Shown: in pieces, positions 13,838-64,000 of the stretch | Position numbering within the stretch: the first letter of the stretch is position 1 | How the letters are laid out: the number at the start of each line of letters is the position of its first letter | Assembly (NCBI GenBank): GCA_040954595.2 | Contig: CM082581.2 | Span: 13,217,921 to 13,281,920, forward strand | Direction of reading: 5' to 3' | DNA: 64,000 nt | Origin: Balanoglossus misakiensis | Lineage: Eukaryota > Animalia > Hemichordata | Program-made: the position numbers and the translations under genes | The notes under the pieces: generated by a model | Told to the model about the DNA's origin: nothing | What the model saw: only the letters and a program-made list of their open reading frames with translations | The model's database searches: none

Positions 13838-14492
13838 GCTGAAGGAATTCAAATGCAAACAGTTAAAACGAAACGACAACTTGTTTTCAAGCAATCGACG
13901 CCATGTTATTTTGGTCACGTGACATTTCTTCGGGGTCAGAGTGCACGAGGGCACGCCCCATCGCTTCGCTGAAAGACACCTGTTGCATCTACTTGTTTCC
14001 AAACCTTATCTTTAATTTCATAAAGCCCGTGATGGAAGACTTGGATTTTCATTGTTTCAAGATTAATTCTTCCATTCCCTACAGTATTTTTTTGTAAATG
14101 ACATTACGCCTAATAACATGAAGAAAGACGAACAGAATAAAAGATGCGCTCTCAGTCTCACTGTTGGTGCGGAGAACAGTGGATGTTCCCATTTGCTATG
14201 AATGTAGGGATAAATCAACGGTATACAACTGTCAGCTGATGCGTCAGCTATTTCAAGAAGTATCAGGGCAGCAGTTGACGGCAAATTCACGTGATATCCA
14301 GCAGGTGGCCCTGTCTCACATTTGGCAGGTGCAGTTTGTTGAGGCGCGTCTCTGAACCAACCCTCTCTGAAAACATCTCCTACCAGAGGCCTTCAACTAG
14401 AAGTAGCTTAGGCCCAGAAGTGTAAGCGTTTGCAAGTCTTGGCCGGGTTATTCGCCGAAGATTAGTATTTGACAAAACAGACCAGAGTGACC

Positions 14493-16694
14493 ATGGCTGG
14501 CGCTTTCCCGAAAACAGAAACATCCGGAGAAATAGACGACGCCTTTCTTACTTGCGGGTTCTGTTCTGAACCGTACAGGGATCCAAAACTTCTTCCCTGT
14601 CTACACACTTTCTGTGCGGAGTGTTTAGCCGAGATAGCTGAGAATGCTGGAAACCTGACCTGTCCACTCTGCCAACGAGGGCACGAAGTTCCCGACGAAG
14701 GTGTTTCTGGTCTGGCATCTAATGATTTCATCGGCGGACTGGTCGCCAGCAGTCGTTACCAACCGACTGGACATTCGTCTGCTCCTCAACGCTGTGAGAC
14801 GTGTAACTCAGGTGACGTGACCAGAGTGTGTTCAGAGTGCTCGCTTGGACTGTGCGAATTTTGCGTGCGTGTGCATGCCCGGATTCCACTGACCCGATCT
14901 CACCGCCTGATGCCACCTGACGAGTACAACCGTGCAAAGACGGAGAACCTCTCATTGGCACAGCCCCCACTCTACTGCACGAAACACCAGGTAAGCGAAA
15001 TCAAACTCTACTGCCAGACGTGTCAAATCTCGGTGTGTCCAGAATGTGCGCTTATCGATCACCAGGGCCACACCAACAGATATCTGAAGGAAGTGGCTGA
15101 TGAATTCTGTAAGGATTTGAGTGACATGATGAACGAACTGAAATTTAAACAAGAAGAAGCCGCCGAAACTCAGAAACGCTTGCAAGAATTAACAGCGGTT
15201 CTCCGAAAAAATATCAAGTCTGAAAATACCAAACTCATGGAACGCGCTGAGTTTGTCAGTGGTATGATACGGAAAAGTGCGCAAAATGTCAGGGCCGCCA
15301 TGAAAAAAGCATACCACAAGAAAAAGGCAAGCCTGGACACGTGTTTTAAAGAGTTGGAATGCATGACGAGTGACATACAAGGGGTGCGAGAATTTTCTGA
15401 AAAAATCATGCGCCACGGTTCGTCCGCGCAGCTCATGTCCGCAAAGATGGGAATGACGTCGCAAATCGGGGAGTTGCTGAAAACAGATATCCGTGAGATA
15501 TCTGAAGATGACGGCTTCATTAAGTTCCGACCAGCAGCAGATGTGCTTAAAGACTCCTGCATTGGGGAACTGGTTACACGCAAGCCTATTGGCTACCAGT
15601 TGGAATTTGTTCCAGAGTATGTGACAGTCCGCAAATCAGCACTGGTTACTCTGAAGGCAAAAGGTAACATGATGTCGTCTGCGGGAAAAGTGAGCGCTCT
15701 TGTTAAGAAACCGGACGGCACCGAAGAAGCGGTGAGTCCGAAGGTGACAGACGAAGAAATAGGAATACAGTCTTTGGAGTTTTTTCCAGTGATGGCAGGA
15801 AATCACCAAGCTTTCATATCCGTGGACGGTGACCCGATTGAAGAGTCGCCGATACTTATACCAGTGGTCTCTGAAAAAGGTCTTCTCTTCGATTTTGGGG
15901 GAAGGGGGACCGCTGAAGGCTTGTTGAATGAACCCTACGGTGTCACTCAACTGCCAGACGGCAGCGTGTTGGTCTGTGATTCTGCTAATCATCGTCTTCA
16001 GAGGTTCACTTTGACCGGCAAATTTCAAGGTCTGCTCCAGCTCCCTGCTCTCGAGAAGCCCGCAAAGCCAATGTACGTCGCGTCAGATGAGGAGAACATC
16101 TACATCACTGACATCGGCAACAACCATGTTATCGTCTGCGATGAAAATGGTCAAGTCGTCAAAACCATCGGGAAGGGGGATTTGAAATCTCCAGTCGGCA
16201 TCGCAGTGAGTCCGACAAATAGCAGGGTCTATGTCGTCGACAGTGATCATTTCTGTGTTAGGATTTACGACCGAGACGGGAAATTGCTATCATCCTTTGG
16301 AAATAAAAAGACCTTTGGGAAAAAGCCTTCTTGCATCTCCATAAGTGGTGAAGGAACTGTCTTCGTTTCTTGCCGCCACCACGCCGCTGTAAAAGTCTTC
16401 AGCTCGGATGGCAGGTTTCTCCACGACTTTGGGAAATTTGACGACGCGGAAGATTTGCATGTGGATAGCCACAATCACGTGTATGTATGTGATTACAAGA
16501 ATGGAAGGGTTAATAAATTCACTGCTGAAGGAAAGTCATCTTATCGCTTAATCGGTACATTTGACGGTTTTGAAAATCCGACAGGAGTCCATGTCACCAA
16601 AGATGAGCCGTACGGAAAGGTGATCGTTGTTGATTACATGGATGCACGTATCAAGGTGTTCGCTCAACAAGATAAAGTTGAAGGACAGGTATGA
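14493..16694 (+). CDS. TRIM-NHL E3 ubiquitin ligase (RING, two B-boxes, coiled coil, filamin/Ig, NHL repeats), TRIM2/3/71-like, single coding exon
   Basis: RING CGFC...LPCLHTFCAEC...CPLC; B-boxes C..C...C..C...C..C...H and CTKH...LYCQTC...CPECALIDH..H; coiled coil; filamin-like VKKPDG...G.H...SVDG.PI..SP; NHL repeats (P.GV, VCDSANHRLQRF, ITDIGNNHV). First ATG at 14493. Confidence 0.92.
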   Translation: MAGAFPKTETSGEIDDAFLTCGFCSEPYRDPKLLPCLHTFCAECLAEIAENAGNLTCPLCQRGHEVPDEGVSGLASNDFIGGLVASSRYQPTGHSSAPQRCETCNSGDVTRVCSECSLGLCEFCVRVHARIPLTRSHRLMPPDEYNRAKTENLSLAQPPLYCTKHQVSEIKLYCQTCQISVCPECALIDHQGHTNRYLKEVADEFCKDLSDMMNELKFKQEEAAETQKRLQELTAVLRKNIKSENTKLMERAEFVSGMIRKSAQNVRAAMKKAYHKKKASLDTCFKELECMTSDIQGVREFSEKIMRHGSSAQLMSAKMGMTSQIGELLKTDIREISEDDGFIKFRPAADVLKDSCIGELVTRKPIGYQLEFVPEYVTVRKSALVTLKAKGNMMSSAGKVSALVKKPDGTEEAVSPKVTDEEIGIQSLEFFPVMAGNHQAFISVDGDPIEESPILIPVVSEKGLLFDFGGRGTAEGLLNEPYGVTQLPDGSVLVCDSANHRLQRFTLTGKFQGLLQLPALEKPAKPMYVASDEENIYITDIGNNHVIVCDENGQVVKTIGKGDLKSPVGIAVSPTNSRVYVVDSDHFCVRIYDRDGKLLSSFGNKKTFGKKPSCISISGEGTVFVSCRHHAAVKVFSSDGRFLHDFGKFDDAEDLHVDSHNHVYVCDYKNGRVNKFTAEGKSSYRLIGTFDGFENPTGVHVTKDEPYGKVIVVDYMDARIKVFAQQDKVEGQV

Positions 16695-17711: not shown

Positions 17712-20700
17712 TTAGTCTTCCGTGACTTCCTTTTCTTCATTCTGTCTCTTGATGTCCTTGACCTTGGCCCACTGTCTTCGCTTCTCAAGTCTCTGTCCAC
17801 TCTTATCTGACGTGTACACAACGTCTTCGTTTTCTGATTCTCTGGAGATCTGCTGCCGGACGCTAATTCTCCGCTTCATACCTTGGTTACAAATAGGAAA
17901 AGGGTCATTACAAATCCAACTGTGACTGACAAATGTTGTGTAACGTTTGCAAATACTGACCAACATGGATAAACATTACCATAATATCATTTTATATACT
18001 GACGAAATGCCATACCTGGGTCAGCTCTCTGTAGTTTGTCCAATGCTGCTCTGCGAATGTCAGATTCACCAGACGTTCCTTGATGGGACGATTCACTCAC
18101 GTAGAATGCCGATTCCACAGCGCTGTCACCAGCAATTGAAGAAGTGTCTTCTGTGTACCAAATACAAAAACAGATATGCAAGGAATAACTTTCCTTAGTG
18201 CATGTACTTTCCTTGTTCTGTAAATGTGCAATTGAAAGAAGCAGCCTGCCTTTGTTTGATACCATTTCTGCAACCCGTTACCAGAATATTGAAACACTTA
18301 ATTTTACTTCTTTATTTCTACCTGTACTGCTGTCGTCGCCATCGTTTTCCCAGCTGTATTTCCATGGCAACCCCTCGGCGATGGCTTTCTGTCTGATCAT
18401 GAGTCGGACATACCGTCCCTTTGTACGCTCACTGTCCCTCTGTGAAGCTCTGCTGTTAAGCTTTGCCCATGGCCTTTTCTGGAGAGTGAAATTCAAAGTG
18501 TGAAAATGCAAAACACTTTCGGATAAGAAAAGAACCCTGGCCTTCTGGCATTTTCAAATGGCATTTCAATATATTAATTCAAACGAATGCAAATATATGC
18601 AGACCAACCTTTCTCATTTTTTCCATTTCTTCCTTGATTTCCTTGGCTGTCCTGTACTCTTCTCTGATTTCATCAATTTCTTTGAGGACTGACAAAATAA
18701 AAGACAATATCAATATTTTATTATTTAAATAGGCGTAAAGTTTGGTGAAAAATCTAGGACTATAGTGCAATACTTTGATAATATTTTCTAAATTTCGTTC
18801 TCACCTTTTGGATCTCTCATTTTCTGTCGGAGTGCCCGCAGCACAATGATGGAAACCCAACATGGCGTCCTGTCGTCATCGTCAACATTCTTGATAAAGC
18901 TCAGTGACACCGCACTTGTGTGCTGAATTAATCTCCTGTTGGTTTTAGGGTCACTGTGCATGGCGATGCGAACTTTGAACTCATTTATATCAAAGACCTG
19001 ACGGAGAAGTAACAGAAGTGAAAATCTTTTTGTCGTTTTATCGAATCATGATGCACAACTGAGTGTACGGCATATAGCAAAATGTCCAGGATTTAGTACA
19101 TGTGGAAAGGTCTCGCTGATAATAAAACTTACCCTGACCGGCCTTCTGTATGGAAGCAGCCCGCTATTTTTGATGATCTCGGCTGAAATAGAGTGATACT
19201 GTGGTTGTTTCCAACCTTTGACATAGATGCCGTTCTTACTGAGTCGACTGGCCCACACGTTGCCCTCCAGATCCATCTCAAGTTGCACTCCTTTCCCTAT
19301 GAAGCCGCGTATCCGCTTAGACTTCTCATCACTCTTGGCATCTGGCATCGATGAAAAGCCAACTCTGGAAGCAGTCACAAACGAACCAAGCAAAGAAATT
19401 ACTTTGAGTCAGGTGTTAGGATAATTGCATTGGCATTAAAAGTAATAGAACACAGTTTGTGCTCACGGGCATGTACAATTACCATTGCCACACTGAGAGT
19501 TGTGTCTTGCCTTACCTGCCACGCTGTTGCCTTGACGACCCATCAATCAGAAGAGTTGGGGAGGCAATGCTGAAGCCGTCAAGAGCATGGGATTTCTCCA
19601 TCAAATAGAGGCGACACCAGACACTTTTATCTAGTTCTGGAATCAAGCTCAGTGCATCTTTCAAGACAAACTGCGAATTTAAAAAGAAGTGCATGATTAT
19701 TACAAAACGAACAATTTCCATTAACTTCCTGTATGCTTTACAAAGTTTAATCAAATGCTGTAAACTTGGCAATACACGAGTCATACTAATACCACTATAT
19801 GAGGAAAACAAATTCAAGCTAAATTACTTTAAGTAGGCAAAGCAACTCAATAATCAAATGCATACCGATTGAATTTCACTTGGTGTAAATATCTCATTGT
19901 TATTGTCGGTCTCATCAATAACTGACGAAACTCGTTTAGTGACCGCAACGGTTGTTGCAGTTGCCAAGGCTACAGATCCAACTTCCGGTTTCCTTACTGG
20001 TCCTGGTGCCTTTGTCTTCTTTTCAGTCATCCCCTTTGCCACCAACATTCTCTGCAGCGCATCCGCCTGCATGCAAAACATCATTCGATTTAGAAGACAT
20101 TTGTACCGCAGAGGGAGCTGTTCCATCGACCTGGACATGGCAGCCATCTTGAATTTTCCATTACTGTCCACAACACAATGAACGCACAGATGAAAGTTTG
20201 TACCTACCTGTTGATGTCGTTTGGCATCATATTCATTCTGTGCTTTCACTCTCTCTGCAAAACTCTCTCCCAGTTGTTGAATTTGCAGCAGAAGACGCTG
20301 GTAGGCTGCAGTCTTGGCCCATGACTCCTGACGGAGGCGTCTCAGCGTCAGCTTTGCAAGAAATCCCCTCACGATACTCTGCACCGTGATTACTTTGGTC
20401 GCCATGGCGTCCATCATGGAGTCCAGCTGTTCAGTGTGCCAGTATTTCAAGAACACCTGAAGTACATTTACCGCATTAGAACTTTGTAGGGTGGAACTCT
20501 CGTCACTTTCTTTACACAAATGTCATTACAACTGTTTCACTGGGCAGCAGCACAGATCAATAAAACAAAGCAATGTCTGGACCACATCACAGAATTGTCC
20601 CACATTTGACGGTGCATATTTCGATCATGGACATACTTTACACGCGAACTGACTTACCTTTGTCTTTCCGACTTGCCAATTAGCAAGCCCTGTAGACTGC

Positions 20701-23700
20701 AACAGGTCATGACAATTCACAGAATTAAATTGGATTTGGGCAGACATTGGAAAACACAGAAATTTGTACCTGGAATTGAACAAATTTAACCCATCATATA
20801 ACATACATATATCAAGGAAGACAAGCACTGGTATATAATAAGCCCATTTTGGTATGATATTATTTTACTTGAATTTGGTTTGGTTTGGTCGAAATTCATC
20901 TGCGAAAGGATATCAGTGGACAGAAAGCCGCCGATGACTTTTGACCTACCTTTGGAGAAAGTCTTGGAATGGCAATCTCACTGAATATCCCATACGTCTT
21001 ATTCTGGTCGTCTCCAAGACACCAGTGTATCTGAGTTGATTCAAGACCATCTGGTCTTCAAATCTTCCAGGCTGTTTCTGATGATTTGGTTTGATGCAGC
21101 GGACAAACTGTGGCTGCGCTGTCAACATCTTTTCCATCAGGTCGGTCAGTGACTCCTGGTGTGGGAGGGGAGACAAGAAAGTCTATTACAGTAAATCGGA
21201 TCGCGTTTATGAAATGACTGGAAAACAGTCATTGACCCCCAACGGGGGGGGGGACTGCTAAGAAGGGGTTAATCAATCCATCCACCGAAAACTCACCTTG
21301 AAGTAGGCACCAACAGTTAACCCTTGCTGGTTATCTTCTTTTGGTCCACTGCTCAATCTGCGAAGACAAAACCATGGATATTCATTCCAGCAACACCATC
21401 TGTGAAAAGTTGCCTCTTCATAACAAACAATCATGGTGTGAATTTTATGAATCGCTCAATTAACATTTTCTAATATAAGAACAGTGATGTGTTTGCTTGC
21501 TTACCTGTGATTCTGTTGGTTGCTGGCTTTCAGATCAGGTTGCTGGGCACACAGCAATATGGCTCTCCTGTCTCTGGCTCGGCTGCTAGACCTGTTCAAA
21601 GCATAACACGCATGAAAATCATGATAGTAATCAGTCAAACAGGCAGAGACATAGAGCACATATGTCTCACACTTATTATCATGTTTAATATTGTGACTTG
21701 GCGAAGCGGTCGCTGTCCTTACCGTCTGTTCATTGATCCAGTTCTTGATAGTTTAGCTTTGAACAATTTACAGATCAAGGCATTCTGAGAATTCTTCATG
21801 CAATCAACAAGCGTCTTGTTCAGCGTGTCTCGGTTCTTTTCTAGGAACCCCACAGCATTGTACACAACCTGTAGGAAATACGAGTTCCATGAAATCACTG
21901 ACCCGTCAATCTGTATATACCTGTATTATGACTTCCTATACTTGAACATACATCAACCTAAAAGCGTAATGAACAATCCAATTTGTCAACATGATACCCT
22001 TAAAGAATATGATTCTTCCTAACACATTAACCCACCTGCCCAGCATAATGGTTGATGCCAAACAGAGCGCCTCTATTGATTCCAGAGGCTGCAACGTAGG
22101 CTGGATTTCGACCACACTTGTTGTTGAACTTGAGAACCAGAGTGTCATCCGTTGCTTGTGGAAATTTGCTTTCCTCATCCAGAAGAGATAGGATCCCAAC
22201 TGGCCTCTGAAACGAATCGCACAATTTTAACATATAATTTCAATGCGTTTGTCACAGTTTCCAGGCCTTAAAATTAGCATAATAACATCGCGTCTTTTGA
22301 CTACAAATTTCTCAATATGTAAATTGGTAGCCAGTTTGAATACTATTACAGGTCTGACACCTGGCAAGCCTTCTGCAGTTTGTTGTATGCAAAACGCAAA
22401 TTACATAACCCTCATAGTATTGTGGATCTTCAAAATCCATCGTGTGTGTTTTTAACTCATTACAGCATTTAGCCTCTGGGCAATACTTACAGCCATGAGT
22501 AATTCCAGCAAGTGTTTGTTGTTCGTGAACTTGATTTCTTTCATGGAGACGCCTTCCTGCGCATACTCAGCTTGTTCCCAGGCGAAGATGTTCTGGTTGA
22601 AGTAGTACTGGAGTTGTTCATTCGTCATGTTGATGCATAGCTGTTCAAAACTGTTGTGTTTGAAATTCTCAAACCCTGAGATGTCCAGAATGCCCAAACT
22701 GCTGCTTGGCCCACCACTGAAATAAACGATGGTACATATATTAGGCGGACTAGCCCAGTCAGTTTGTCGTTTTCTGAACACTCTGATGAAATATAGATAC
22801 ACTGAAAATGCTAGTTTTCATTTTCTTTTCAACCACCTGGTTGTCTAAAACTAATAATGTTGATTCAATACCTGTATTCATTGCCAGATGCAAGCATATC
22901 ATTCACTTGGCAGACTATCCACCCGAACAATCGGCCATACAGAGCCTTACACAGTGCATCTCTTCCATCATTGGCTTGGTCCACGGTTTTCAGCATCACT
23001 ATCTGCTCACCTCTTGTGTAAGTTGTGTTAGAAATGAGGGCAGCGGCAAGGTCAACCGGATCAATGCTTAAAAGGTTACTCACTACATAAATAAATAAAT
23101 AAATAATAATCATTAGTTTAGAATATGTTGAGATCATCAACAACGTCTGTTGTCTTTGGTAGATAACTGAAGAGAGATAATTGATGATTTAGCGAGAAAA
23201 CTTACCAACTTTAAGATAATATTCATCAGCAACGTAAGCGCTGTCAAATTCGTTATCAAGTTCAAATTCAATATCAGATACGTTCAAGATGGCTGCTATG
23301 ACTGACTGTATGGAGTGCACATCCTAGCAACAAAGGAGAAAGAAAAATAATGGTTGCCTACCGAAAATGTATGATTTAAAAAGGTTGGACTTAGTGAACA
23401 ACAAAATGTTGCCGTTCCGTTCTTTTCAGGGTGATTCATCCGTGGTTTTCATGCAGATATATCGATCATGCATATGACTTGTCCTGTGCAAACATTCAGA
23501 ACTTACATCGTGTGAAAATCCAACAGTGGACATCAATTGTCTCAGCTCGTCATACTTTGTCTGGCAAAAATTAAAATGGTCACCACTTGTGTACACTTCA
23601 TTCACTGAATGAGTGCCACTTAAGATTCTGAAAATTAGAAAATAATATCACCATGTAAGACAATTATCACCATAGCAACATAACAACAGCTTGAGCATTT

Positions 23701-25733
23701 GCATAGTCTTATTATAATGACATCAATTGTGAAAACAAAAGGAGTTTTAGGACTTTAAATTTTACCTGTGTTTGTCTGGTGATAAGAGATAATATTGCAA
23801 CAGTTCGTTTTCGGTCAGACCAGCAAACATGTAATAAAATATATGAAAGTTTCTCTCTCCCGGATTCTGGGATACCACTCTAGATTTCTCCAGTAAATAT
23901 TCTTCAATATTGGCTGAAAGAAGATAAAACTGGTCAATCAGACTGTCTAATGTATTGACCAAATTGACAATGCTCTTCTGGGAGCTGTTCCTTTGTAAAT
24001 CAGTGAGGTCACGTGTCCATCAAACTATCATTTACACACATTACAAGAAGGATAAATTTAATGCCGTGTCCTCACCTCCTATCACTTTTCCATCAGATGT
24101 AAATTTTAAATCCACGAATTTGCCAAACCGACTTGAGTTCTGATTCATCACAGTCTGAGCATTCCCAAATGCTTCTAATAGAGGATTCACCTGGACATGG
24201 AACAGATAAGTTATTGTTAATATACCATTTAGTATAACATTGCCATGGTTAGAGCTAGTTGCTACCTATATAGTCTTACCTGTAGAATTTTGTCTTGGAG
24301 ACCGCGCTGCTGAGAATGACAGTGGTTCATCACATGCTGAATGATCAGTTTAGTTGTCTCTGTTTTACCGGCTCCAGATTCTCCGCTGATGACGCAACAT
24401 TGATTGACCCCCGTGCGCTTCATCTGCTGGTATGCCTTGTCGGCCACGGCGAATATGTGTGGCCGCATGGATCGCCTGTACTTCAAATTAACATACTTGC
24501 TCGAGATCTTCCAAGAACAAAACAGATAATATTGACAGTCTTATTATTTGAACAATTTTATGCTCAGAATGAAACTCATCAACAATAGCAACAAGATGGA
24601 AGTTGTAATACACCAGGCAATTAACGCCGAAAATTGTATGCAACCAAAACATATTTCTTGTCACTATACGCCTATATATAGTGTGTTTGATTTATGACGG
24701 GAATGTGACCGAGTCAAATATCTTGGCTACCAGGCGAGTGACATTTTGAAATAAGTTCTGCCCGGTAACGTTCTCAAAATATGGTATGGTTTCTTTTCTG
24801 CTCTTCGCCTAAAGTGTTCTCGTGTATTACCTACTGACAATTTGACATCTGGAGACTGAAGTTGTTTTAAAGCGACTTAATTTCTTTTTCCGAGACTCGT
24901 TCTGGGTCTTTCACCCTTCCTTTTCTTAATCGTAATCAAAGCATCGCGTAATGACAGAAGACAGCGACTCTTTGGCGCTAGAAAAGTACACCATCATGCA
25001 CTTCGGCTTTGTTATATCCAGGGCTGTCAATGATACGAAAGCCCTCTCTGACCCAAGTTAATGGATTTTGTTTGCTATTCATACCTCGAAAGTATAAATT
25101 GGCAGAGCACGGCACGGGTTGACCGCCAGTAATATATCACCGATGTATGTCTGCAAGATAAAAAACACACACGCAGGATTGAAAACGAAATAAAATGCAA
25201 CAGAAACGAAACCGAATTCATGATACAAAATTCATGATACAAAAATGTAGTTCGACCCTCAATAGAAATGGCGATATATGAAGACCAATTTTCAAAGAGG
25301 TAGTCAACCAAAACATTTGGTGGAACGACAGATTTTCCTTTCTCTGTATCATAATGCAAATATCAAAGTCCATATTTAAAACGATAATCAATCTACTGGT
25401 GTGTTGAATGTGTGACCAACCTTAGCCGCCATGCATCATATTGATCATATGCTTTTTAAATTAAATACAACACTGTGTGTTTTACCATTTCGTTCACTTT
25501 CTGTACCCAAAGAAACTTGCCACAATCCGCAAGTGATACTTATATTTACTGAAACGACGAAAAAGCGGAACTTAAACCAAACGCCTATGAAATGATAGGA
25601 ATGTATTCTTGCAGAGTAGACCACTTACATAGATATGGTCTTTCTTAAACCTGGCCTTCAACTGTTCTAAGATTGTCTTCTCGTCCAGTACGCTCAGTGT
25701 GGCCAGATCGTCGATGAGCTTGCCGTCCGCCAT
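17712..25733 (-). CDS. Unconventional myosin (class III-related motor, no kinase) with IQ motif and C-terminal SMAD MH2-like domain
   Basis: ATG 25733 ([18 protein letters not shown]). Motor motifs: [12 protein letters not shown]-loop [77 protein letters not shown] motif [11 protein letters not shown]. Then MH2-like exons and a charged tail; stop at 17712-17714. Confidence 0.92.
18805..19630 (-). other. MH2 (SMAD/DWB)-like domain encoded by three exons of the myosin gene
   Basis: [10 protein letters not shown]...SPTLLIDGS...[12 protein letters not shown]....[15 protein letters not shown]...VFDINEF...SLSFIK....TPCWVSI parallels SMAD WCSIAYYE...SLTVDGF...RRHIGRGVRL...GEVFAECLSDSAIFV...IFNNQEF...RMSFVK...TPCWIEL. 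Confidence 0.88.
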
Positions 25734-29050: not shown

Positions 29051-29173
29051 CCGGGTAATCTGATACACCACGTCAGTTGAGTCGTTTGGTTTTGGTGCCG
29101 TCAGTTGAGAAGAAGGGCTTTGAACTGCGCAGACGGATAAGCAGCTCCACATTTTCCACCAACCTTACTCGCC

Positions 29174-32100
29174 ATGCGGCTGTTCTTCGCCCTATCTTCG
29201 TGCGTGCTTCTTCTTTTTTGTTCCAGCCCCGTCTTCGGTGCGTTTGGAGACGATATTTCCACCGACAATGCCGATAACCGGTTCTCTAACATGGGTCAGG
29301 TCTACAAGGAAGACTTCAACGTGACGATGGGCCAAGTCGACATTTCACTTGTCGTTCAAGACACTGCCGGCATACAGGAAATCTGGATTTTGGATTTTCA
29401 ACCCTTTAGGTTCATTCAGAACGCTTTGCCTGTAGATGAGACATCTGGTAAGATGGTTTAATTTGTTTATTCAAGTACAATAGAAGCAAACAAGTTAGAT
29501 TTTGAAAAGAACCATGACATTATGCATGCAGCCTTTTTATTTCACAATTTGCTAAATTTAGACGAGGATGAACAAATGTAGTCATAAAATGCCAGCACTC
29601 AAAATTTCTTGACAACCTAAACGCAGTGACCAAAATATATGCCTTTGAAAGAAAACGGCACTTATTTTCAAGTAAACTATTTCAGTGAGCAGTCCGTGCA
29701 AAGCTCGCGGATTGTTTGTCGTCCATTTTGATTTTTGACACGCTCACTACAAAACGGTCACCTTGGCAGGTGTATATCATCACAATGCATCCAGGCGGCC
29801 AGATTGGCCGAGAGCAGTTATTCGGAAAACTGGTACACGTGCATGTGAAATTCGCTGATCTCTTAATTATTTATCAGGTCTGCTGGACATGTCAAGAACC
29901 GGGGAATGTTCCAGCGTCTATGAAGATTCCACCTTTCCAACATTTCTGCAAGACGATTACTTCACCAGTAAGACTGCAGCAGAACTGACTAGCAAAAAAC
30001 TATTCACGTCATTCGAGAGAAATGATGTATTGGACGGTAAGTTTTAAAATCGGTAAAGAAACTAAAACGGTGAAATTCTAGTAGTTTGCTAACGTCGTAT
30101 CCTCGGAACAAATTTCAGAAACACGACTAGTGGAATTAGAAACTACGGTTCACTTGAAGTAAGACTATTTTCTCGTATTTCAACCTCCAGGCGACAACCG
30201 AAGAAACCACAAGGTAGTTTACAGTGGTGATTTGCAGACTTTCTTCGAGTGCAAAAAATCCGATGGCTTGACTTCGATCTGGGATGTGACAGCGGACACG
30301 GCCGACGAGATAGAATATCGCACCAAATTGTACGCCACCAATGTTCGACCAAAGGATACGGCAGATGCCGCAGCGGGAATCTCCTTCGTCCAATCACATA
30401 TAGAACTAATCTGGAGACTTTCTCGTACTGCTATTGGAAAGGTAAAATATATCTTCTGTAAAATACGATAACTTGTAAGAAATGTAATGAACGTACCAGC
30501 GTTGTCGCCACTTCTGGTTTAAATTTGCCGGTCACCGTACGTATGAAACATGGTGTGCTCTTGGAAACTGAAGATTCGTGTAGGGCGAGGCAGTTTTGAA
30601 ATCGCCCATCTTGATATAACATTTAAAACGTTTCCTTCACAGTTCATCATTAGTTCAACCGCCATCTTGCAACCTATCTTCGAGTTTGCCATCGTGGGCA
30701 CAGTATACGACGAAAATGACCAGCCGGTGCCAACACAAGCAAACTTGCATCTCAGGTGTGTGGAACTTTATATATTTAGAACTTTATTGTTAATTCCTAA
30801 CCAGGGCAAAGTTTACGTTTATAAACTTTCACCAAGAGTAAAGTTGGAGATTTCACATTTTAGTCGATTTGCAATGTGCGCACCGCATTGTATGCTCTCA
30901 AAACAAAATAGGATATAATCTGAATCTGATTGCTTTGTCAGGCGTGTTCACATAGATGTTGGACACGTGCGTGATTTCGTTAACTTTTCGTATCCATCCT
31001 TTACAATTGCTCAGGTTCACAACAGTGTTTGATTCGGACAGTGCGATGGTGGTCTACGTACAAGACAGCGTGGCCTACATCCCGGACAACACGAACCACG
31101 ACATCAACAAGACGGTGTTGGAACCCCCATCAACCCTGGTGGGAACGCCAGTTTGCTCTATTGAACTCGATGTAGGTACTGGGTCACAGTTGCAATGTAG
31201 ACAGGTAGGTAATGTATAATATCTTTTATTGAGTGTTCCATTAGCCTAGTCTTTTTCATTGGCATTAACCCAATCTCATTTCCCCCACAGACATTCGATT
31301 TCAAATTTGTCTTGGATATAGACACGTCCCTGGCGACCAACAGTGTGCCGGTCGACGCAAGCGGTGTCTTTGAATTCCTCTTCAACACGTATACCTGTGA
31401 GACTGTTAATAACCAAACTGTGGTCAGTTCGTGTCTACTGAACACGGGTCAAGACCCCATCAAGGTTGCCGCAGCCATCACTCTTCAAACGACAGTGTTG
31501 CTTGAAGATGCTGAAGACGACCAGATTACCATCACCCTGGTCTCTCTCAGAGGTATGTTTTTTTGCTCGTTGTTTTTCGGTGTTCTGACCAATCGAGGAA
31601 ACTGTCGCTTCCGTTGACCGATAAATGGTCCAAGTGTATGGTACAGGCTGGCGAGCACAGCCATGTACTAGAATCCCGAGATTCGGACAATTCAATTCGC
31701 CTGTGAAGCTCAGCTATACATTTTTGACGGAACTGCAAGTTCTCGCTGCTCACCTGACTTCCAAGCAGTGCTATATTTAGCAACGTTTTAATGATTTCTA
31801 ATCAAAAAGGAGTCAACAACGTCGAATTCAGTGTCCCGGGTAGCAGAGGAGTTTTGCACAAAGAAGAGGTGACATTGGAGGTGAAATTTTCGCCAGCTTT
31901 GTTGCGAGAGGACTTCACGCTGGAACTACTGCTCTTCATGGTGTGTAGAGGCGAGGAATTTGCCGGCGATGGACGCCCTGATGTAAGCATATCTAAGAAT
32001 GATAACCTCGTGATATTACTTCGTTTAGAGGAATAACCACGACCATGATCAAATTGGCCGGGATCATCAAATTGGCCAGGATCATCACGATCGCTGAAGC

Positions 32101-34481: not shown

Positions 34482-36343
34482 TTATTCTGATGGCATTCCA
34501 AATAATTTGACGGTGCCCGCATCTCTGTTCTCGTATTTATCCTTATCATCGCACGCAAAGGCCAAGAGATTCCTCTTAGGGTGCCACGCCACGGTGAAGG
34601 TGGGTGACTCACACTGGACTTCTGTGATCTTCTCTCCTGTGGAGAATCAAATAGTAGTGGCAACCATCAGTAAATGTTTTGGATCAAATCAAGCCTTGGC
34701 CACATGGGATTACATTCATAAGCAGCTATAGACTTTACCATTGTGTTGTATATATAGGTGGCCTAACAGCACTCACATGCACACCATTAGTTTCTGACCT
34801 CAACCTCCTATGTTTTATTATGTCCCTAAATTATGCATGGAAAGCAGTGAGTGGGATCCATACCTGATTCAACTTCTGCTATATCAATGACAAGGTCTTC
34901 AGATGCTGAAGCTAACATTTTACCATCGTGACTGAAACTCAGTGTCCTCACAGGCCAATCAAGTCTGAAAAGAATGAAGAAAACCACGAGTTGAAACCAA
35001 CTGTAATACAGCAATGGGATTAATCCAAAACCCCGTACAAACATCAAATATAAGTACCAGTTTGCTGTCCACGTTCAATGCATGGCAGCTATTGGCCCAT
35101 GAGGAAAGACCTGAAATGTTTACAAACCTGGAAAAAGTTCTGACACAGACAAGTTCTTCCACATTCCAGAGACTGACCAAGGCATCTGCACTGCCGGTGG
35201 CAAAGTATTTCCCCGTCGGGTCGAACTCAATGCAGATGCAATTGGCTGGGTGTGCATTGAGAGTTTGCAGGGGCTTTAACTCAGGATAGCTGGAAGTGAA
35301 TAGAGTCACATTACATGTTATGAAGGAACCTACAAGCATGTACGCATGGAGGTGCTACTTGGGATTGGAGCGAGGGTCAACTTTCTACATTTGGTCTTCA
35401 CTGTCACCCAGTAAAGGTCAAGCAGACATTAACCAATCCCAAGTCATCCATTTTTGTCTTTTACCTGAGAATATTTATGCATCCATGTCCGTTGGTCAGG
35501 AAAAACAAATCATTGTCATTGTTCCATGATATTTCATTCACTTCGTATTTAAACTGTTCTTCTGCCCTGGCCTTGTGTGTCCTTGCATCAATGAAAGTGA
35601 CCAAGTCTTCTTTGTTTCCCACAGCTATAGTGTGTCCATCAGGACTCCAACATATGTTGATGTTTTCACCTGCCGAATACAATCAGAATGGGAATCTGTA
35701 CCACTGATTCCATAAATTTACGAAATGCATGTGTTTTGGATTACTCCTGTCTATGATCCAACTTCAATCTAACCGACCCACCTTTAGTGTTTACATTTGT
35801 TACACATTTATTGGACCTTGCATCCCATATTTTGATGCTTTTATCACCGGACGCCGTGACCAGAAGGTCTGGATTTGATGGATGCCAGCACAGCTGATCA
35901 ACACTGTCACCATGGCCACGATATACGTGGTCTCGTCCCTGTGAATGAAGGCAAACAAGATGCATCATTTGTATCATCAGTGATGCTTAGGATTTCAATC
36001 AGTTCAGACTATGGCAGGTATTACAATGTTTGTGGAAAGGTCACAGTGATTGCGTTAGAGAAAACAATGCTGCGATCTGTACTACCACGTTCTATTACAA
36101 TTTCTCCATTGACAACAGCATGTATATACAACTGCAAAGACATTAGCATCATCACTTTGCACATACCATTCTGTCTTTCTCCAGAACAAAAACACTGACG
36201 GTTTTATCAAAAGAACCTGATGCAAGTTTTCTGCCATCACAACTCCAGGCTACAGAATGGACTTTTGAGGAGTGGGCACGAAACTCTTCCGTGCGACCAA
36301 AACTCTGGAAATATTTCCGCATGTCTTCTGCGTACGTCGCCAT
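34482..36343 (-). CDS. THOC3: THO complex subunit 3 (TEX1), WD40 protein
   Basis: AHSSKVHSVAWSCDGRKLASGSFDKT, GHGDSVDQLCWHPSNPDL, GENINICWSPDG, AHPANCICIEFDPTGKYFATGSADALVSLW, LDWPVRTLSFSHDG, AGTVKLFGMPSE*. Confidence 0.95.
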
Positions 36344-51476: not shown

Positions 51477-52361
51477 CTAATGTTCCGTTGCCGTGGTAGC
51501 CGTTTGAAGCAGACTGCTAACGCTAAAGTTACAGCAGTTTGTGGTGGCGCCCGGCATTGAGTAATGACTACGGCCACTCACCGGGTACGTGTACGTCGTC
51601 GACGACGTCGTGCTTGATTCCCCATCGGCACACGGAGTTTTCACCATTTCCCTGTCGGTCTTCGCACTCGCTGTCGGCACAGAGTCGACTGTCGGGTTCG
51701 AAGAGACGGCAGCGGTACTGTTCGTGGATGTTGCTGCATTGTCGCGGCGTTTGCGCTTACGTCGGAAGTTACCGTTGTCGAACATCTTCTCGCAGTTCGG
51801 GTCCAGCATCCAGTAGTTGCCCTTGCCCGGGTCATCCTCACTTCTTGGTACTTTTTTGAAGCAGTCGTTCAGCGACAAATTGTGACGGATAGAGTTCTGC
51901 CACCCGGCTTTGCTCTTCTTGTAGAACGGGAAATTGTCCGACACGTATCTGTATATGCCGCTCAGGGTTATTTTCTTCTCTGGGGCGCCTTGTATCGCCA
52001 TGGCAATGAGTGCAGAATACGAATAAGGCGGTCGGACCAATTTAAAAAGTTCTTGCTGTGTTGGAATCGATAGCCACCCGAAGTCCGTCGGGCTGAAACT
52101 CGGCGCCGGCAGATAGTGACGTTGAGTCGGCGGCGGGGGTGGGGGACATGACGGTGGTGCGCTGTACGTCGGTGGCATATAGGTAGCATTGAAGGGATTG
52201 GCAGCGCTCAATGTTGAAGTGTTGAACCACATCGAAGCAGTTGGATAGCCCGGATTAGTATAATCCAACGCCGAAGGATTACCAATGTAGCTCGGTGGTG
52301 ATCGCGGTACGGTATGTTGATACATGATGTCACGGGTTGTGTCAGTCGCCTCCTGTGTCAT
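51477..52361 (-). CDS. foxI: Forkhead box protein I, single exon
   Basis: [29 protein letters not shown]...[59 protein letters not shown] is diagnostic of FoxI. C-terminal eh1-like FSVSSLL. Confidence 0.95.

Positions 52362-62507: not shown

Positions 62508-64000
<1,493 letters not shown>

What the first reader, a model, noticed from the sequence alone, without database searches (positions are those of the whole stretch)
17712..25733. Myosin motor fused to a SMAD MH2 domain: a motorised MH2 protein
Seen: an intact motor (P-loop, switch I NSSRFG, switch II variant DISGFE) and one IQ motif are joined through in-frame GT-AG exons to a full MH2-like domain and a charged tail. Established: MH2 is normally the receptor-binding and oligomerisation module of SMADs and also occurs in insect Expansion/Rebuf proteins; I know of no vertebrate or Drosophila myosin carrying one. 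Inference: an actin-based motor that moves or anchors SMADs, receptors or matrix-synthesis machinery through MH2, or that trimerises through it. The architecture may already be catalogued in myosin phylogenomic surveys, but I know of no functional description.
Basis: partly seen in the sequence, partly recalled or inferred. Interest (0 to 1): 0.9.

Follow-up and report, generated by a model that had tools for sequence, protein, structure and literature searches.

The report
Class-80 myosin with Expansion-like domain
This gene joins an intact myosin motor to an MH2 domain, a fusion already catalogued as class-80 myosin; its MH2 matches the insect chitin-export factor Expansion better than the SMAD signalling proteins, so it likely positions matrix-secreting machinery at the cell surface rather than carrying SMADs.

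Summary
Observation confirmed: 24 GT-AG exons (25733-17712, minus strand) give an unbroken 1230-aa myosin head + IQ + MH2 + charged tail, 73% identical end to end to a Ptychodera flava protein. The architecture is not new: it is Kollmar and Muehlhausen's class-80 myosin (2017), also seen in a sponge and a choanoflagellate (2014); relatives run from sponges to molluscs and echinoderms. The SMAD reading is not supported: the domain has Expansion's N-alpha helix and short L3 loop and no SSXS; profile and fold searches rank Drosophila Expansion (4R9P) first (Z 28.0 against at most 20.6). In MH2 trees ecdysozoan Expansion groups with lophotrochozoan myosin MH2s (99/98, 100/98), suggesting Expansion is this myosin's tail without the motor; AU tests (p 0.06-0.07) do not exclude other rootings. 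Likely function: an actin motor that places a partner complex at the apical cortex, perhaps for matrix (chitin) secretion; untested. I found the Expansion kinship in no paper searched; this scan noted it before in two annelid windows. No RNA evidence for this genome.

The parts
17712..25733 (-). Class-80 myosin gene, 24 coding exons, 1230 aa. Exons (high-low): 25733-25629, 25150-25085, 24507-24280, 24190-24076, 23913-23766, 23627-23507, 23323-23206, 23082-22872, 22716-22491, 22206-22036, 21868-21723, 21591-21505, 21357-21297, 21155-20950, 20769-20658, 20456-20208, 20066-19866, 19670-19516, 19364-19133, 18997-18805, 18688-18609, 18478-18322, 18150-18016, 17881-17712
   Evidence: end-to-end match to P0001
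20445..25715 (-). Myosin motor domain, aa about 7-711; no kinase, ankyrin or SH2 exons in the window
24361..24384 (-). P-loop GESGAGKT (aa 99-106)
   Evidence: coordinates worked out
24119..24139 (-). Switch I NSSRFGK (aa 151-157)
   Evidence: coordinates worked out
22668..22685 (-). Switch II DISGFE (aa 382-387)
   Evidence: coordinates worked out
20325..20393 (-). Single IQ motif (aa 729-751), below Pfam cut-off
19632..19877 (-). Predicted N-alpha helix (aa about 854-870), split by intron 17 (19865-19671): its first turn lies in the motor-side exon
   Evidence: (model of the Ptychodera orthologue)
18815..19625 (-). MH2 domain, Expansion type (aa about 873-1047), with two internal introns (19515-19365 phase 2, 19132-18998 phase 0)
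18854..18895 (-). Short, acidic L3 loop (aa 1021-1034), 6 residues shorter than in SMADs
18455..18811 (-). Long charged helix after MH2 (aa 1049-1085) ending in the first [RK]xWAK[LV] motif (18478-18458)
18350..18358 (-). Conserved YSW motif (aa 1118-1120)
17760..17783 (-). Second KRRQWAKV motif near the C terminus (aa 1208-1215)

Best explanation
This is an intact class-80 myosin (motor, one IQ, MH2, charged tail) whose MH2 matches Expansion's N-alpha-MH2 better than any SMAD's, and which likely works as an actin motor that holds or delivers a partner complex at the cell cortex, probably for secretion of apical matrix, outside TGF-beta signalling. Steps: (1) shown: gene, domains, class, wide conservation. 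(2) shown by sequence and predicted by folding of the orthologue: N-alpha helix, short L3, no SSXS. (3) inferred from Expansion's crystal structure: the domain is likely monomeric and unlikely to bind phospho-SMADs or type I receptors. (4) inferred from intact P-loop, switch I, switch II, a Glu at the TEDS position and a basic loop 2 (12 K+R, 4 D+E): an active, short-lever, probably single-headed motor suited to tethering or local delivery (motif meanings recalled). (5) inferred from trees and complementary distribution: ecdysozoan Expansion/Rebuf is the same gene's tail after loss of the motor. (6) least sure: the partner belongs to the apical matrix machinery, chitin synthase's helpers in chitin-making animals. 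My odds: class-80 member 0.95; Expansion-type domain 0.9; not a SMAD carrier 0.75; Expansion is the motor-less orthologue 0.65; role in apical matrix secretion 0.35-0.4.
For: Gene and orthologue. Class: motor tree (47 rows, quick search, SH-aLRT only) puts the window in an 8-row ambulacrarian clade (95) inside a 19-row bilaterian clade (97) apart from Myo3, Myo16 and SH2-tailed myosins; literature. Expansion type: a profile of three ambulacrarian MH2 regions scores 4R9P 98.8 bits in one ungapped-at-L3 stretch (profile 10-198) against at most 71.1 for the 24 SMAD chains; the window's own exon 19 ranks 4R9P first of 12 (E 7e-06; SMAD4 3e-04); the window model scores 130.9 bits on a 14-row Expansion HMM and 44.5 on a 5-row SMAD HMM. 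AlphaFold model of Ptychodera 836-1114: helix 10-25, pLDDT 89, the same helix with an alignment of 13 ambulacrarian rows only; Foldseek ranks 4R9P first for both (E 3.5e-19 and 3.8e-18); VIA Z 28.0, rmsd 2.2, 199 aligned to 4R9P 33-236, SMADs Z at most 20.6 and starting at model residue 24-29. L3 span 21 in 5 of 5 SMADs, 15 in 8 of 8 ambulacrarian, 9 of 10 lophotrochozoan and 12 of 14 Expansion rows. MH2 trees (LG+C20 PMSF): Expansion clade 98/93 and 97/92; Expansion + lophotrochozoan myosin MH2 99/98 (58 rows) and 100/98 (55 rows); the branching follows animal phylogeny with Priapulus, nematodes, a tardigrade and arthropods in the Expansion clade (names). None of the named myosin+MH2 proteins is ecdysozoan (29 of 120 rows, 16 of 51). 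Expansion-type gene-call fragments break where the window has its two MH2 introns (3 at profile position 65-66, 2 at 143). Gastropod members show decayed motor motifs with intact MH2. Literature: Expansion N-alpha-MH2 is a monomer, outside TGF-beta, needed for chitin translocation; lophotrochozoan MH2 myosins group with the class-36 myosin-chitin synthases.
Against: AU tests do not reject trees that keep Expansion outside the myosin MH2s: p 0.065 and 0.062 (all myosin MH2s as one clade), 0.067 and 0.064 (bilaterian ones), 0.066 (Expansion + SMAD). The root moved between the two trees (90/75 for Bilateria, 50/19). The short L3 is also in Monosiga, sponges and cnidarians, so it is ancestral and no special link. 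Majority-residue columns are nearly even: ambulacrarian = lophotrochozoan 15, lophotrochozoan = Expansion 14, of 82 (9 of the 15 and 3 of the 14 equal the SMAD residue). Window MH2 identity to Expansion is only 22-30% (SMAD 20-21%). Outside the MH2 the tails differ: Expansion's CM2 (DDPYY) is in 0 of 54 motor-bearing proteins, and the myosins' WxK motif in 5 of 79 motor-less ones, 4 of which look like myosin-tail fragments. The SMAD set is thin (4 SMAD4-like, 1 R-SMAD, no I-SMAD), which handicaps the SMAD HMM and the root. SMAD's loop-1 Asp and Arg and the Lys before L3 are kept in the window. De Giorgio et al. found no physical Kkv-Reb interaction. Whether acorn worms make chitin or have a chitin synthase was not established; folds were made from the orthologue, not from this protein, and AlphaFold may know 4R9P.
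Confidence: 0.6

Rival explanations
1. General cortical adaptor motor: the N-alpha-MH2 binds an unrelated cargo (membrane proteins in microvilli or cilia-bearing epithelia, as tails of myosin III, XVI and XXVIII relatives do); the chitin role is a later specialisation of ecdysozoan Expansion.
For: The fusion is older than Bilateria and present in sponges and cnidarians whose MH2 lacks the amphipathic N-alpha pattern; CM2 is absent; no chitin synthase could be shown for acorn worms or echinoderms (passages do not address it).
Against: Two separate links of this lineage to chitin synthase: Expansion's phenotype and the grouping of lophotrochozoan MH2 myosins with class-36 motors. Neither concerns ambulacrarians directly.
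Confidence: 0.3
2. SMAD or receptor carrier: the MH2 trimerises or joins SMAD4/R-SMAD trimers or type I receptors and moves them on actin.
For: True MH2 fold (SMAD Z about 20); loop-1 Asp900 and Arg909 and Lys1022 kept; myosin-borne MH2 was proposed as the ancestor of SMAD MH2.
Against: L3 lacks the GWGxxY-R segment (it holds the Arg changed in the SMAD4 L3 mutant 1g88) and is acidic; no SSXS; the SMAD helix-5 Asp position is not Asp (its role recalled); predicted N-alpha helix superposes on the one that blocks trimers in Expansion; Expansion does not transduce TGF-beta.
Confidence: 0.07
3. Two adjacent genes, or a main isoform that stops in intron 17, so that the fusion is a gene-model artefact here.
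For: No transcript of this genome was seen; exon 17 read-through meets a stop at 19854 and an ATTAAA lies at 19751.
Against: 195-nt GT-AG intron in phase, continuous 73% match to Ptychodera across it; the predicted N-alpha helix begins in exon 17; the same fusion in 29 of 120 rows; whole ORFs lie on Logan contigs of 3.8, 4.2 and 6.0 kb (P0013, P0026, P0049), which fits spliced transcripts (inferred).
Confidence: 0.03

Closest known systems
Class-80 myosins (Kollmar and Muehlhausen 2017, PMC5583752) and the lophotrochozoan MH2 'orphans'
   Same: Motor of the class-3/16/28/36/80 group, C-terminal MH2, ambulacrarian clade; 73% identical to Ptychodera flava 'myosin-IIIa-like'.
   Different: No structural difference found. 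The passages read give no function and do not relate the MH2 to Expansion; the large supplement could not be read.
Drosophila Expansion/Rebuf, N-alpha-MH2 (PDB 4R9P; PMC4388265, PMC4305360, PMC9894549)
   Same: N-alpha helix, short L3, no SSXS, best sequence and fold match, tree neighbour of lophotrochozoan myosin MH2, apparently the same two intron positions.
   Different: Expansion has no motor or IQ, carries the domain at its N terminus and has CM2; the myosin has WxK and YSW tail motifs instead; identity 22-30%.
SMAD MH2 (SMAD1/2/3/4/7)
   Same: Same beta-sandwich and helical bundle (Z 17-21); loop-1 Asp and Arg kept.
   Different: No MH1, no GWGxxY L3 insert, no SSXS, extra N-alpha helix.
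Myosin III-like + MH2 of Salpingoeca rosetta and Oscarella carmela (Sebe-Pedros et al. 2014, PMC3942036)
   Same: Same head + MH2 architecture; sponge members recovered here (Sycon, Corticium, Dysidea).
   Different: Non-bilaterian MH2s lack a clear N-alpha pattern and their motors do not join the bilaterian clade in my quick tree.
Class-36 myosin-chitin synthases of Lophotrochozoa
   Same: Reported to group with lophotrochozoan MH2 myosins by motor; link actin to chitin secretion.
   Different: Tail is a chitin synthase with membrane helices; none was among my sequences, so the kinship was not tested here.
Myosin III (the automatic database name of the orthologues)
   Same: Related motor, 45-48% identity.
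   Different: No kinase domain; separate clade. 'Myosin-IIIa-like' is a misnomer.

Membership tests
Class-80 myosin | Myosin head with C-terminal MH2 domain | tested here: met
Class-80 myosin | Motor groups with the ambulacrarian MH2 myosins, apart from classes 3, 16, 28 | tested here: met
   (SH-aLRT 95; quick tree). Rows labelled by taxon and architecture, not by Kollmar's own class-80 sequence list
Class-80 myosin | Separation from class-36 motors | not tested
   no myosin-chitin synthase among the 120 rows
Class-80 myosin | Class-specific intron pattern in the motor | not testable with these tools
   the pattern is in the paper's supplement, too large to read
Expansion-type N-alpha-MH2 domain | N-terminal alpha helix packed on the beta-sandwich | tested here: met
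   profile match from position 10; predicted helix in two models of the orthologue; superposed on 4R9P from residue 33
Expansion-type N-alpha-MH2 domain | L3 loop six residues shorter than in SMADs | tested here: met
   also ancestral, so not diagnostic of kinship
Expansion-type N-alpha-MH2 domain | Monomer in solution | not testable with these tools
   needs SEC-MALS
Expansion/Rebuf protein family | N-terminal domain, no motor | tested here: not met
   domain follows an 850-residue head and neck
Expansion/Rebuf protein family | CM2 motif | tested here: not met
   DDPYY in 0 of 54 motor-bearing proteins, 19 of 79 motor-less ones; motif located from the primers and P0057
Expansion/Rebuf protein family | Orthology of the MH2 (Expansion nested among myosin MH2s) | tested here: inconclusive
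   99/98 and 100/98 but AU p 0.062-0.067
Expansion/Rebuf protein family | Required for chitin translocation | not testable with these tools
   needs genetics
SMAD | MH1 DNA-binding domain | tested here: not met
   none in P0001; SMAD queries hit only the MH2 exon or nothing in the window
SMAD | Long L3 loop with GWGxxY and basic phosphoserine pocket | tested here: not met
SMAD | C-terminal SSXS (R-SMADs) | tested here: not met
   MH2 runs into a long helix; protein ends KEVTED
Myosin III | N-terminal kinase domain | tested here: not met
   Myo3 queries hit the window only from their motor on; orthologues start at the same Met

The most novel reading that the evidence does not exclude
MH2 myosins are the ancestral, motor-driven form of the chitin-export factor Expansion/Rebuf. 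One old motor that positions chitin synthase or its helpers at the apical membrane gave rise both to motor-less Expansion in moulting animals (tail kept, head lost) and to the myosin-chitin synthase fusion of molluscs and annelids (head kept, tail swapped for the cargo). The acorn-worm gene would then mark an unrecognised apical-matrix secretion system in deuterostomes, and Expansion would be expected to need a separate actin link in flies.
Probability: 0.3. Interest if true: 0.8.

Novelty: new member of a known kind. Interest (0 to 1): 0.5.

Why it matters
The fusion itself is known but has no described function in the papers searched. Placing its MH2 with Expansion gives the class a first testable function and gives Expansion, described as an invention of ecdysozoans or protostomes, a deeper origin on an actin motor. 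It would tie three things now treated apart: how Exp/Reb arrange chitin synthase at the apical membrane without binding it, where the motor of lophotrochozoan chitin synthases came from, and what MH2 did before SMADs. Domain-swap rescue in Drosophila and knock-down in sea urchin or annelid embryos are ordinary experiments.

Tried and rejected
No whole genome is held for this window, so paralogues, SMADs and chitin synthase of this animal could not be sought. No RNA holder was listed; no reads were laid; this is no evidence on expression. Homotrimer job (3 copies of Ptychodera residues 841-1080): no verdict, score 0.00, alignment not used; counted neither for nor against. The tail-only word search found only 3 true relatives among 5 hits; a profile search was needed. 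ESM Atlas on the MH2 region returned arthropod and nematode MH2 clusters first (0.91) and a SMAD6 cluster at 0.90: a lead only; the search on the distal tail did not complete. A VIA second look at the ambulacrarian-only model was not obtained; Foldseek was. The idea that the WAK motif is Expansion's CM2 was rejected. An EDPYS string shared by three sea-star genera and Expansion is absent from other myosins and was not used. The likeness of [RK]xWAK[LV] to calmodulin-binding helices is recalled and untested. Rows left out of trees: 46 of 161 profile hits as fragments, then 65 kept after redundancy and gap filters; searches used hand-picked sets of 58 and 55 rows (without long rows P0244, P0205 and duplicate P0199). 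Searches for chitin synthase in acorn worms or echinoderms (passages) gave no statement either way. No neighbour in the window points to a shared pathway.
Full report
1. The observation. The minus strand between 25733 and 17712 holds 24 exons that splice into 3693 nt and 1230 residues with a single terminal stop. All 23 introns are GT..AG, 89-577 nt, and poorer in GC than the exons (36% against 46%). Pfam finds Myosin_head in each of five motor ORFs given, MH2 above cut-off in the middle MH2 exon and IQ only below cut-off. The model is 73% identical over 1247 columns to a Ptychodera flava protein, from the first Met to the last residues and across the motor/MH2 junction; that protein carries Myosin_head and MH2. 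The animal is therefore probably an acorn worm (inference). One ATTAAA lies in the junction intron, 1 of 3 in the introns.

2. It is a catalogued class. Kollmar and Muehlhausen 2017 (PMC5583752; passages; the species table searched; the main supplement too large to read) define class-80 myosins by a C-terminal MH2 in echinoderms and hemichordates, with lophotrochozoan orphans of the same architecture that group with or beside class-36 myosin-chitin synthases. Sebe-Pedros et al. 2014 (PMC3942036; passages and section 26) report myosin-MH2 in Salpingoeca and Oscarella and propose that MH2 began on a myosin. My searches found head + MH2 in 29 of the 120 rows listed and 16 of 51 proteins scanned: hemichordates, all five echinoderm classes, a brachiopod, an annelid, chitons, bivalves, gastropods, cnidarians and sponges (names); none named is an ecdysozoan or chordate, within the limits of those lists. 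In a quick motor tree of 47 rows the window sits among 8 ambulacrarian rows (SH-aLRT 95) within a bilaterian clade (97) apart from Myo3, Myo16 and SH2-tailed myosins; no class-36 sequence was in hand. There is no kinase, ankyrin or SH2 exon in the window.

3. The MH2 is of the Expansion type. The window's middle MH2 exon ranks Drosophila Expansion (4R9P) first among 12 solved sequences. A profile of three ambulacrarian MH2 regions scores 4R9P 98.8 bits over positions 10-198, against at most 71.1 for SMADs, which start at 20-31 and need a 6-residue gap in L3. The window model scores 130.9 bits on an Expansion-only HMM and 44.5 on a thin SMAD-only HMM. Folding used Ptychodera residues 836-1114 as a stand-in. 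Both models, one with 53 mixed rows and one with 13 ambulacrarian rows, have a helix at 10-25; Foldseek ranks 4R9P first for both, and VIA gives Z 28.0, rmsd 2.2, 199 residues to 4R9P 33-236, against Z at most 20.6 for SMADs. Beich-Frandsen et al. 2015 (PMC4388265; parts 2-4 of 6 read) show that this helix (34-47) covers the trimer interface, that L3 has 11 residues instead of 17, that the domain is a monomer, and that Exp/Reb do not transduce TGF-beta. The window's L3 is short and acidic, there is no SSXS and no MH1. Against this: identity to Expansion is only 22-30%, the loop-1 Asp and Arg of SMADs are kept, and AlphaFold may have learned 4R9P.

4. Expansion as the tail without the head. In three MH2 trees the motor-less proteins of Priapulus, nematodes, a tardigrade and arthropods form a clade (98/93, 97/92 under LG+C20) that joins the lophotrochozoan myosin MH2s (99/98, 100/98) to the exclusion of ambulacrarian, cnidarian and sponge myosin MH2s, SMADs and the Monosiga MH2. 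Since the motors of the lophotrochozoan and ambulacrarian proteins group together, the simplest history is vertical descent of one head + MH2 gene with loss of the head in Ecdysozoa. Supporting hints: the amphipathic N-alpha pattern is shared by bilaterian myosins and Expansion but not by sponge, cnidarian or SMAD rows; five Expansion-type gene-call fragments break at the window's two MH2 introns (inferred from proteins, no DNA seen; I recall that SMAD4 also has the second intron); gastropod members have decayed P-loop or switch motifs with intact MH2. Against: five AU tests gave p 0.062-0.067 and reject no alternative; the root is unstable; the short L3 is ancestral; majority-residue columns are 15 against 14; the Priapulus record is partial; tails differ, CM2 being in 0 of 54 motor-bearing proteins, while WxK (26 of 54) and YSW (27 of 54) mark the myosins. 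I put orthology at about 0.65.

5. How it likely works. The head has intact nucleotide motifs, a Glu at the TEDS position and a basic loop 2 (meanings recalled), so an active motor is likely. One IQ suggests a short lever; no dimerisation element was shown; a long charged helix follows the MH2 and two basic Trp-anchored motifs, conserved from sponges on, may bind calmodulin, actin or the head (untested). The N-alpha-MH2 would recruit a partner complex. In flies that domain is needed for chitin translocation and for the apical pattern of the chitin synthase Kkv, without a shown direct contact (PMC9894549, passages; PMC4305360, passages). With the reported kinship of lophotrochozoan MH2 myosins to myosin-chitin synthases (PMC3942024, passages), the best single mechanism is a motor that places matrix-secretion machinery at the actin-rich apical cortex. 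This last step is inference (0.35-0.4); whether acorn worms have a chitin synthase was not established (searches; passages of PMC10216261, PMC4595640, PMC8180256, PMC5995198, PMC12460157). A general adaptor role is the main rival, SMAD transport a minor one.

6. Novelty. The architecture is known. A functional study of class-80 myosins, or a link between them and Expansion, was not found in searches of the held library; 'myosin' has 0 occurrences in the four Exp/Reb papers counted and 'rebuf' 0 in the two myosin surveys. Subscription papers and the unread 2017 supplement may hold it. A choanoflagellate preprint (10.1101/211789, passages) notes only that MH1 and MH2 occur on separate proteins. 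Two earlier notes of this scan on annelid windows reached the same Expansion kinship; I had reached it, before looking, and they are no independent support.

7. Verdict. Interest 0.5; 0.8 if the motor-to-Expansion-to-chitin-synthase history holds (probability 0.3).

Noticed in passing
window 14466-16694 (+): Intron-free 742-codon ORF with RING, B-boxes, filamin and NHL repeats (TRIM-NHL protein), convergent with the myosin gene, about 1 kb between the stops.
   Followed up: partly
window 34959-35354 (-): Exon matching the THOC3 beta-propeller (E 6e-24).
   Followed up: no
window 51477-52361 (-): 294-codon ORF with a Forkhead domain (E 3e-39).
   Followed up: no
window 63045-63422 (+): Exon with a Sel1 repeat.
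   Followed up: no
window 29141-29461 (+): ORF that reads like a signal peptide followed by a secreted-protein start; no Pfam family; divergent from the myosin's 5' end.
   Followed up: no
P0009, P0011, P0013, P0093, P0095, P0178 (gastropod-type myosin-MH2): Motor motifs decayed (altered P-loop, switch I or II) while MH2 and tail motifs are kept: possible pseudo-motors.
   Followed up: partly
window 18478-18458 and 17783-17760 (-): Twice-repeated [RK]xWAK[LV] motif, in 26 of 54 motor-bearing MH2 proteins from sponges to bilaterians; function unexplained.
   Followed up: partly
P0133 (Monosiga brevicollis): A motor-less 512-aa MH2 protein with the short L3, so the SMAD L3 insert looks derived.
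   Followed up: partly
P0006, P0183, P0184 (sea stars), near the C terminus: An EDPYS string also seen after the MH2 of Expansion; absent from other myosin-MH2s.
   Followed up: no
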